A stretch of 64,000 nt of DNA, taken from contig CAVUZO010000008.1 in NCBI GenBank assembly GCA_963745935.1, forward strand, positions 49,207-113,206. The letters are read 5' to 3'. This stretch comes from an uncultured Parachlamydiaceae bacterium. Lineage in GTDB: Bacteria; Chlamydiota; Chlamydiia; Chlamydiales; Parachlamydiaceae. A program made the translations under genes and the position numbers. Shown one piece after another: positions 28,598 through 28,849 of the stretch (positions within the stretch are counted from its first letter, which is position 1; each line of letters opens with the position of its first letter). The notes under the pieces were generated by a model. That model saw nothing but the letters and a program-made list of their open reading frames with translations, had not been told where the DNA came from and searched no databases.

Positions 28598-28619
28598 CAT
28601 CAAAAGCCTTGGGTTTTAA

Positions 28620-28783
28620 ACCCGACTTGCGCCCTATCAATGACTCATCTGATGGGCGCTTGTTTTGGAGGCTAAAACGGGGCAATTTTCGCCTACTTTA
28701 CTCAAGTATGTCAAAAATTGCCCCGTTTTAGCCTCCAAAAAATCGCATCATCAGCTGAATCACCGCTAGGGCGCAAATCGGGT
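28620..28783. mobile_element. MITE-like palindromic element, type A, copy 1
   Basis: 164 bp. Termini ACCCGACTTGCGCCCTA / TAGGGCGCAAATCGGGT, inner inverted repeat TTTTGGAGGCTAAAACGGGGCAATTTT / AAAATTGCCCCGTTTTAGCCTCCAAAA, flanked by TTTAA on both sides (28615-28619, 28784-28788). About 98% identical to 54821-54984 in reverse orientation. Confidence 0.8.
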
Positions 28784-28849
28784 TTTAATTGGCTCTTTCC
28801 CTCCAAATCCTGTATATTTATACTCAAATAAAGATGTACAGGATGGATC

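What the first reader, a model, noticed from the sequence alone, without database searches (positions are those of the whole stretch)
28615..28788. Type-A palindromic element sharing termini with the type-B element but with an unrelated core
A 164-bp element sits 22 nt after the lipase stop, flanked by TTTAA/TTTAA. It shares its first 17 nt (ACCCGACTTGCGCCCTA) with the 32-kb elements, but the interior is different. It is built from nested inverted repeats (TTTTGGAGGCTAAAACGGGGCAATTTT / AAAATTGCCCCGTTTTAGCCTCCAAAA, plus weaker middle arms), so the whole unit can fold into a hairpin with roughly 80-bp arms. Two core types with one terminus type suggests one trans-acting transposase mobilising several non-autonomous derivatives. 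In transcripts the hairpin could also act as a terminator or stabiliser between the lipase gene and lpdA.
Basis: seen in the sequence. Interest (0 to 1): 0.65.

Follow-up and report, generated by a model that had tools for sequence, protein, structure and literature searches.

The report
IS982-type miniature transposon in a chlamydia
The 174-bp palindrome after the upstream gene is a small non-coding jumping element (a MITE) that carries the end sequences of an IS982-family insertion sequence common in environmental chlamydiae; it is real and recently mobile, but an ordinary kind of element.

Summary
Window 28615-28788 holds a 164-bp imperfect palindrome (ACCCG...CGGGT) flanked by direct TTTAA repeats. 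A 98%-identical copy lies inverted at 54816-54989, flanked by TTAAA as read on the + strand.

Its 17-nt terminus, ACCCGAYTTGCSCCCTA, is shared with the type-B elements at 32078-32407. It also ends 40+ short palindromic elements in other Chlamydiota assemblies. Of 47 distinct elements, 38 have exact 5-bp direct repeats (T-W-N-W-A), which is a transposition signature.

I identified the transposase family. Complete 1144-1151-bp IS982-family insertion sequences carry the same termini and make the same 5-bp TTWAA duplications (NCBIfam NF033520, 196 bits against a cut-off of 130). Lactococcal IS982C ends in ACCCGAATTGC.

Type B is the left-end hairpin of that IS joined to the right terminus. The type-A core matches no sampled IS end (z about 0) and had no hit in JGI metagenomes, so its origin is unknown.

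The terminator or stabiliser idea is untested. The "lipase" label has no domain support.

Verdict: a new member of a known kind. IS982-derived MITEs are already published for Cardinium. Interest is modest.

The parts
28615..28619 (.). Left copy of the 5-bp target-site duplication, TTTAA, of type-A copy 1
   Evidence: It is identical to 28784-28788 as a direct repeat. Flank positions -5 to -1 read T-W-N-W-A across 94 element ends, and positions beyond -5 are random.
28620..28636 (+). Left terminal inverted repeat, ACCCGACTTGCGCCCTA
   Evidence: The window holds 8 matches against 0.09 expected. Positions 1-17 are nearly invariant in 94 ends. The termini of chlamydial IS982-family ISs match it closely; they have A rather than G at position 5. 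IS982C ends in ACCCGAATTGC.
28637..28662 (+). Weakly complementary outer or middle left arm of the type-A core
   Evidence: It falls within the 75-nt arms at 81% complementarity and is partly paired in the folds.
28663..28689 (+). Perfect 27-nt inner arm, TTTTGGAGGCTAAAACGGGGCAATTTT
   Evidence: It is visible in the sequence and fully paired in the MFE structures. A 23-mer from it has no match in JGI metagenome contigs.
28690..28713 (+). 24-nt apical region with a small 5-bp stem
28714..28740 (+). Perfect 27-nt inner arm, the complement of 28663-28689
28741..28766 (+). Weakly complementary outer or middle right arm
28767..28783 (-). Right terminal inverted repeat; it reads ACCCGATTTGCGCCCTA on the minus strand
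   Evidence: one mismatch to the left terminus.
28784..28788 (.). Right copy of the 5-bp target-site duplication, TTTAA
54816..54989 (-). Second type-A copy, inverted relative to copy 1. It is 164 bp plus the 5-bp duplication at each end, which reads TTAAA on the + strand and TTTAA in the element's own orientation.
   Evidence: It is 98% identical over 174 nt, with 3 substitutions. Identity stops exactly at the duplications. It lies between a DUF952 gene and an NqrF-like oxidoreductase gene.
32078..32407 (+). Type-B composite: one 157-bp B element (32113-32269) inserted into the internal TTAAA of another B element (32083-32107 plus 32275-32402). TTAAA is present at 32078-82, 32108-12, 32270-74 and 32403-07.
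   Evidence: The sequence is and the repeat families. The layout L-TTAAA-L-TTAAA-core-R-TTAAA-core-R-TTAAA is what a nested insertion with a 5-bp duplication predicts. The B core is collinear with the first ~138 nt of the IS982-family ISs (z = 21-33; 75% identity).

Best explanation
[quoted passage not shown] It is a 164-bp non-coding DNA bounded by the 17-bp terminal inverted repeats of an IS982-family insertion sequence lineage that is widespread in environmental Chlamydiota.

Proposed mechanism:
1. An IS982-family DDE transposase, encoded elsewhere in the genome (not in this window), binds the ACCCGAYTTGCSCCCTA termini.
2. It integrates the element at a T-W-N-W-A pentanucleotide (TTWAA in this genome).
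3. Staggered cuts 5 bp apart, once repaired, give the flanking TTTAA/TTTAA duplication.

The long hairpin potential follows this lineage's usual MITE architecture: terminus, one ~120-130-nt hairpin module, terminus. In sister MITE types that module is the left-end or right-end hairpin of the IS itself. The type-A module comes from an unsampled source.

Shown: termini, duplications, a near-identical second copy, a nested B insertion, and ISs with the same ends and the same duplication.

Inferred: mobilisation in trans in this genome, the cutting geometry, and recent activity.

Any effect on the transcripts of the flanking genes would be a by-product of insertion.
For: Within the window:
1. Two copies, 98% identical, lie at unrelated loci in opposite orientations. 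Identity ends exactly at a 5-bp direct repeat.
2. The type-B composite is a textbook nested insertion into an internal TTAAA, duplicating it.
3. The element has no ORF above 46 aa and nothing transposase-like. No IS982-like coding sequence is present in the window.
4. Three contig ends in an independent Logan assembly of the same organism stop 23-25 nt inside these termini, as expected for repeats.

Across other assemblies:
5. Of 47 distinct elements with this terminus, 38 carry exact 5-bp direct repeats: TATTA, TAATA, TTAAA, TTTAA, TTGAA and TAGTA. They are always direct, never inverted.
6. Among the 53 stretches returned by the genome scan, paired termini occur in six of the eight Chlamydiota loci and one Abditibacteriaceae MAG. 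All other single hits are unpaired, at about the chance level.

Link to IS982:
7. IS982C of pNZ4000 ends in ACCCGAATTGCTAGTT, which matches 10 of the first 11 nt.
8. L088 is an IS whose transposase ORF is split by a B-type MITE with a TTAAA duplication. Removing the MITE and one TTAAA restores a 277-aa ORF. That ORF scores 195.8 bits on NF033520, IS982 family, against a cut-off of 130.
9. Complete copies (L116, L119, L121, L123) are 1144-1151 bp. They start ACCCAACTTGCGCCCCTA, end TAGGGGGCAAGTTGGGT, and have matched TTTAA or TTAAA duplications.
10. A more divergent member (L126, 52% identical) has ACCCAAGTTGCTACCTA ends and a TTCAA duplication.
Against: - The type-A core has no detectable similarity to either end of any of the four IS variants sampled (z between -1.0 and 1.6), nor to any other element. 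Derivation from an IS by internal deletion is therefore not shown for type A.
- No cognate IS was found in the 64-kb window, and the rest of the genome could not be searched. An active partner in this organism is inferred.
- The window termini have G at position 5. The sampled full-length ISs have A there, although other chlamydial MITEs do carry G.
- Only two type-A copies are documented.
- Transposition was not observed experimentally for any member.
Confidence: 0.88

Rival explanations
1. The element is primarily a functional RNA or DNA hairpin, such as an intergenic terminator, an mRNA stabiliser or an RNase III site. On this view it is maintained by selection between the upstream gene and lpdA, and the resemblance of its ends to mobile elements is secondary.
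For: - The fold is very stable (-100 kcal/mol, z = -12.7), with a 27-bp perfect stem.
- The GC-rich stem base CGGGT is followed by TTTTAATT, which is terminator-like.
- Both copies lie between same-strand genes.
- From general knowledge, other bacterial MITEs (Correia, ERIC, RUP) are known to affect transcripts.
Against: - The consensus scan scores no terminator there.
- There is no Rfam family. Only sub-threshold generic miRNA-hairpin matches appear, at 23-40 bits against gathering scores of 51-100.
- The two copies are in opposite orientations relative to the flanking genes and are flanked by target duplications.
- The core is absent from JGI metagenomes.
- The gene neighbourhood is not conserved in relatives.
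- A hairpin is the generic architecture of all MITE types of this lineage, whatever the sequence.
Confidence: 0.06
2. Type A is a chimera rather than an IS deletion derivative: an unrelated pre-existing genomic palindrome, or a different small element, that acquired IS982-type termini. This would arise, for example, from two nearby solo termini or by insertion into a terminus-only mini element like those in L019 and L040. It is then mobilised like any MITE.
For: - The core is unrelated to all sampled IS ends and to all other MITE cores.
- Terminus-only mini-elements of about 35-40 bp exist (L019, L040) and contain or abut TTWAA targets.
- Nested insertion into such sites is documented for type B.
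Against: - No direct repeat flanks the inner 78-bp palindrome: CTTG|TTTTGG on one side and CCAAAA|AATC on the other.
- The inner palindrome was not found on its own anywhere.
- IS end hairpins diverge quickly between IS variants, so an unsampled parental IS is an equally simple explanation.
Confidence: 0.2
3. The element is a REP/BIME-type extragenic palindrome handled by a RAYT (IS200/IS605-like tyrosine transposase), or some other non-DDE repeat.
For: It is an intergenic, palindromic repeat. Short terminus-only hairpins exist in relatives.
Against: - Exact 5-bp target duplications flank 38 of 47 elements. From general knowledge, REP/RAYT systems do not make these.
- The termini match those of DDE IS982-family ISs, whose ends and duplications were read directly.
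- There is no GTAG or CGTC head.
- At 164 bp the element is far larger than the 20-40 bp typical of REPs.
Confidence: 0.01

Closest known systems
[quoted passage not shown]
   Same: - A non-autonomous element with no transposase gene.
- Inverted repeats very similar to those of an IS982-family IS.
- Found in an obligate intracellular bacterium, mostly in intergenic regions and inside other mobile elements.
- Multiple derivative types arise from one parental IS.
   Different: - The host phylum differs: Bacteroidota rather than Chlamydiota.
- MITECca01 is about 240 bp, against 164 bp here.
- The Cardinium MITEs retain short sequence next to the repeat from their parental IS. The type-A core shows no similarity to any sampled IS.
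- MITECca01 is reported as unique to one strain. The chlamydial terminus family spans many MAGs and at least 8 core types.
- I did not compare the sequences directly, because the Cardinium record was not available.
IS982 family insertion sequences (for example IS982C of Lactococcus plasmid pNZ4000), and the chlamydial clade found here (L116, L123, L126, L128)
   Same: - The terminal sequence is ACCCGAnTTGC.
- The chlamydial members make 5-bp duplications at TTWAA or TTSAA, as the MITEs do.
   Different: - The MITE has no transposase gene and is about 7 times shorter.
- No clean duplication was visible around the IS982C copy I read.
- Beyond position 11 the lactococcal terminus differs.
Correia elements (CREE/NEMIS) of Neisseria
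   Same: By analogy from general knowledge: intergenic MITEs of about 100-160 bp with terminal inverted repeats. They fold into long hairpins when co-transcribed and can be cut by RNase III or act as terminators or promoters.
   Different: - The termini are different, and Correia elements duplicate TA rather than 5 bp.
- No parental IS is known for Correia.
- No transcript-level effect has been tested for the chlamydial element.
REP/BIME elements and RAYT transposases
   Same: Intergenic palindromic repeats.
   Different: From general knowledge, REPs are 20-40 bp, have no target duplication and are linked to tyrosine transposases. Here the elements have 5-bp duplications and DDE-type IS982 termini.

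Membership tests
MITE (miniature inverted-repeat transposable element) | Short (under about 300 bp) and without a transposase gene | tested here: met
   The element is 164 bp. The longest overlapping ORF is 46 aa. There is no IS982-like coding sequence in the window.
MITE (miniature inverted-repeat transposable element) | Terminal inverted repeats | tested here: met
   The termini are 17 nt and match at 16 of 17 positions.
MITE (miniature inverted-repeat transposable element) | Target-site duplication flanking each copy | tested here: met
   The duplications are TTTAA/TTTAA for copy 1 and TTAAA/TTAAA for copy 2, both read on the + strand. Across the terminus family, 38 of 47 elements have exact 5-bp direct repeats.
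MITE (miniature inverted-repeat transposable element) | Several dispersed copies in one genome | tested here: met
   The window holds two type-A and two type-B copies, and an independent assembly breaks at the termini. Genome-wide copy number is not testable because only 64 kb is available.
MITE (miniature inverted-repeat transposable element) | Termini matching those of an autonomous IS that could supply the transposase | tested here: met
   IS982-family ISs in chlamydial assemblies have the same termini and the same duplication.
IS982-family-derived element | The transposase associated with these termini belongs to the IS982 family | tested here: met
   NF033520 scores 195.8 bits against a cut-off of 130. 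The protein is 30% identical to the IS982C transposase over 256 aligned positions, covering most of both proteins (E = 2e-25). The homologues carry Pfam DDE_Tnp_1_3.
IS982-family-derived element | Internal sequence derived from the parental IS (a deletion derivative) | tested here: not met
   The type-A core against four IS variants gives z between -1.0 and 1.6. For type B the feature is met, with z = 21-33 and a collinear alignment.
IS982-family-derived element | Cognate intact IS present in the same genome | not testable with these tools
   None is present in the 64-kb window.
Intrinsic transcription terminator | GC-rich hairpin followed directly by a U-run, with transcripts ending there | tested here: inconclusive
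   The consensus scan finds none, but its limits on stem and loop size exclude an 80-bp hairpin. By eye, the stem base CGGGU is followed by UUUUAAUU. No 3'-end data are available.
REP/BIME (RAYT-associated) | Palindromes of 20-40 bp without a target duplication | tested here: not met
   The element is 164 bp and has 5-bp duplications.
Any Rfam RNA family | A match at the gathering score | tested here: not met
   Only two tRNAs are found in the window. Around the element, only sub-threshold generic hairpin matches appear.

The most novel reading that the evidence does not exclude
In this IS982 clade, the hairpin between the termini may be a functional requirement rather than filler. Both ends of the IS carry ~120-nt hairpins. 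Almost every MITE type with these termini is terminus-hairpin-terminus, even though the cores are unrelated in sequence. Type A has the most perfect stem. If so, the transposase or the host would select for cruciform or hairpin structure as such, for example in transpososome assembly, in strand-specific transposition from single-stranded DNA, or in RNase III or terminator effects that insulate neighbouring genes. Type A would then be a module recruited for that structure rather than a decayed IS end.
Probability: 0.12. Interest if true: 0.55.

Novelty: new member of a known kind. Interest (0 to 1): 0.3.

Why it matters
- **Annotation.** These elements are small, unannotated and break short-read assemblies. 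Three contig ends in an independent assembly stop inside them. Knowing the terminus (ACCCRAYTTGCSCCCTA), the 5-bp T-W-N-W-A duplication and the parental IS982 clade lets them be annotated across Chlamydiota genomes.
- **Evolution.** They mark recent mobile-DNA activity in obligate intracellular bacteria. One MAG has at least 35 copies in 288 kb. They also interrupt other mobile elements: an IS982 transposase in L088 and an IS1634 remnant in L029.
- **Practical use.** Presence/absence polymorphisms could serve as strain markers. The pair of inverted type-A copies 26 kb apart is a potential substrate for inversion.
- **Limits.** None of this changes a concept. IS982-derived MITEs in an endosymbiont are already published.

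Tried and rejected
1. **IS1634 as the parent.** A transposase fragment between two MITEs in L029 is IS1634-family. However, it is truncated by the MITE, its relatives are all ~106-146-aa remnants, and their loci lack the terminus. Rejected.
2. **A 1338-bp 'pair' of termini in L044 as a full IS.** Its two ORFs have no family match and the flanks do not match. Rejected.
3. **Unpaired termini in L068 and L074.** These are truncated MITEs, not IS ends.
4. **Self-BLAST of 288 kb from the MITE-rich metagenome.** No IS-sized repeats appeared.
6. **Viral contig scan.** Only unpaired hits were found.
7. **Type-A core in JGI metagenomes.** Zero matches.
8. **Empty-site or orthologous-locus comparison.** The nearest homologues of the upstream gene are only about 45-53% identical, and in the three fetched loci they lie in different neighbourhoods. 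No test was possible.
9. **Literature.** No paper was found describing MITEs in Chlamydiae, and none contains the terminus sequence. A search for 5-bp TATTA targets was uninformative.
10. **Type-A core against four IS variants and all other MITE cores.** No similarity was found.
11. **One look-up (P0175).** It returned nothing.

Full report
**1.

The sequence at 28615-28788 reads as follows:
- TTTAA
- ACCCGACTTGCGCCCTA (the terminus)
- a 26-nt weakly paired arm
- a perfect 27-nt arm, TTTTGGAGGCTAAAACGGGGCAATTTT
- a 24-nt apex
- the perfect complement of the 27-nt arm
- a 26-nt arm
- TAGGGCGCAAATCGGGT (the terminus, inverted)
- TTTAA

It begins 22 nt after the stop codon of ORF 27107-28597 and ends 61 nt before the lpdA start at 28850.

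- The repeat finder reports arms of 75 nt at 81% complementarity.
- As RNA it folds at -100.2 kcal/mol (z = -12.7). As DNA it folds at -62.9 kcal/mol (z = -14.6). No shuffle reaches either value.
- With up to 3 mismatches, the 17-mer terminus occurs 8 times in the window against 0.09 expected.
- Types A and B share only the duplication plus terminus, 22 nt in all.

- A second type-A copy lies at 54816-54989 on the other strand. It is 98% identical, and identity stops exactly at the 5-bp flanks.
- The 'lipase' label has no support. The protein has no Pfam or NCBIfam hit even at permissive thresholds. Its nearest named homologue is a hypothetical membrane protein of Estrella lausannensis, at 45% identity.

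The gene content (SctJ, lipoyl synthase, an NqrF-like protein) and the homologues place the window in Chlamydiota.

**2. It is a transposable element, not a locus-specific hairpin**

The type-B region at 32078-32407 reads L-TTAAA-L-TTAAA-core-R-TTAAA-core-R-TTAAA. This is exactly what results when one 157-bp B element inserts into the TTAAA inside another and duplicates it.

All eight Chlamydiota loci in it had real elements or terminus-bearing remnants. One Abditibacteriaceae MAG had a 203-bp element with an 8-bp duplication.

A two-terminus pattern then found 33 metagenome loci, 28 of them from the metagenome behind one chlamydial MAG.

Over 47 distinct elements, 38 have exact 5-bp direct repeats:

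| Duplication | Count |
|---|---|
| TATTA | 17 |
| TAATA | 12 |
| TTAAA | 5 |
| TTTAA | 2 |
| TTGAA | 1 |
| TAGTA | 1 |

These repeats are always direct, so they are not part of the inverted repeat. Positions -5 to -1 read T-W-N-W-A, and position -6 outward is random.

Three contig ends in an independent Logan assembly of the same organism stop 23-25 nt inside these termini.

**3. The transposase family**

I recalled that IS982-family ends begin with AC, and tested that directly.
- IS982C on Lactococcus plasmid pNZ4000 has the termini ACCCGAATTGCTAGTT. That matches 10 of the first 11 bases of the MITE terminus.
- A tblastn of its transposase against all held DNA hit L088.
- L088 is an IS whose transposase ORF is split by a B-type MITE with a TTAAA duplication. 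Removing the MITE and one TTAAA restores a 277-aa ORF in frame.
- That ORF scores 195.8 bits on NF033520, 'IS982 family transposase', against a cut-off of 130.
- It has 659 homologues, mostly 274 aa, on contigs of about 1-1.5 kb.

Complete copies (L116, L119, L121, L123) are 1144-1151 bp. They start ACCCAACTTGCGCCCCTA and end TAGGGGGCAAGTTGGGT, and they carry matched TTTAA or TTAAA duplications. L123 sits next to V-ATPase genes.

A member only 52% identical (L126) has ACCCAAGTTGCTACCTA ends and a TTCAA duplication. A decayed copy lies beside a solo terminus in a named Chlamydiales MAG (L054).

An earlier candidate, an IS1634 remnant in L029, was rejected because it is itself interrupted by the MITE.

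**4. Where the cores come from**

These ISs have a ~120-nt hairpin at each end, folding at about -79 to -86 kcal/mol.
- The window's type B, the L088 MITE and one L093 MITE are collinear with the IS left end up to GCGTGAT and then jump to the right terminus. Scores are z = 21-33 and 75% identity.
- L095 is the right-end hairpin between two termini (z = 31-57).
- The abundant 157-158-bp type of the BWOrgHeat MAG shares only the apical CTCGCCAAGG...CCTTGGCTT motif with one IS right end (z = 6.5).

Clustering gives at least eight core types, and nearly all fold as one long hairpin.

The type-A core clusters only with its own second copy. It has z between -1.0 and 1.6 against four IS variants and no exact match in JGI metagenomes. 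Its source is therefore unknown. It could be an unsampled IS end or a captured palindrome.

**5. Mechanism**

Shown:
- shared termini
- 5-bp duplications
- the nested insertion
- a near-identical dispersed copy
- ISs with the same ends and the same duplication

Inferred:
- An IS982-family DDE transposase encoded outside the window binds the termini and integrates the element at TTWAA with 5-bp staggered cuts.
- The element was active recently, given the 98% identity between copies.

Transcript effects were not tested.
- No terminator is scored by the consensus scan.
- A promoter-like TTGGCT-18-TATATT begins directly after the element, in flanking DNA.
- Rfam gives only sub-threshold generic hairpin matches.
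- Both copies lie between same-strand genes but in opposite orientations.

**6. Comparison and novelty**

The closest published case is MITECca01/02, derived from the IS982-family ISCca4 in a Cardinium endosymbiont (PMC9769881). I found no paper describing MITEs in Chlamydiae or containing this terminus.

This is therefore a new member of a known kind, and apparently an undescribed family. Interest is modest (0.3).

The most novel reading still open is that the hairpin itself is required for mobility or is used by the host (probability about 0.12).

Noticed in passing
window 43085-43356: Another GC-rich inverted-repeat element of about 270 bp. Its arms are 43087-43132 and 43309-43354 (46 nt, 78% complementary), and its ends read TATAGGTAA...TTACCTATA. 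It is flanked by TTAA and AATTAA and lies just after a terminator-like hairpin at about 43046-43075. Its termini are unrelated to the IS982-type MITEs, so it may be a second MITE family.
   Followed up: no
window 28807-28844: A small hairpin with 16-nt arms at 81% complementarity (ATCCTGTATATTTATA / TAAAGATGTACAGGAT). It overlaps the predicted -10 box and the ribosome-binding region just upstream of the lpdA start at 28850.
   Followed up: no
L116 17-1160; L123 2816-3966; L128: The chlamydial IS982-clade insertion sequences carry a ~120-nt hairpin at each end. One lies between the left terminus and the ribosome-binding site, the other between the stop codon and the right terminus (about -79 to -86 kcal/mol). 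Each hairpin has independently given rise to a MITE type.
   Followed up: partly
L068-L100 (metagenome Ga0206972, the same source as MAG 'Chlamydiae bacterium BWOrgHeat_Nextera88_MAG2', L029): Of the 35 copies of this 157-162-bp MITE type found, all but three come from this source, in under 288 kb of sampled sequence. The duplication is almost always TATTA or TAATA, whereas the window genome and the full-length ISs use TTWAA. This looks like a lineage-specific target preference.
   Followed up: partly
L022 3573-3775: An Abditibacteriaceae MAG (GC 56%) has a 203-bp hairpin element with the same terminus but an 8-bp duplication, TAAGCGTA. The terminus family therefore reaches beyond Chlamydiota, or the contig is mis-binned.
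   Followed up: no
L029 441-748 and L055-L064: C-terminal remnants of an IS1634-family transposase, about 106-146 aa, recur in many chlamydial-type contigs with no full-length relative returned. In L029 one remnant is cut by a MITE insertion.
   Followed up: partly
Its homologues are 42-53% identical hypothetical proteins, including one in Estrella lausannensis. Three of them carry PF26363.
   Followed up: partly
window 28615-28788 and 54816-54989: The two type-A copies are inverted repeats of 174 nt at 98% identity, lying 26 kb apart. They are a potential substrate for inversion of the intervening segment by homologous recombination.
   Followed up: no
L019 1693-1727; L040 about 5340-5377: Terminus-only mini hairpins of about 35-40 bp, such as ACCCGACTTGCGCCATCATAGGGCGCAAGTCGGGT, are flanked by TTAAA duplications. 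They may be minimal elements or excision or deletion products.
   Followed up: no
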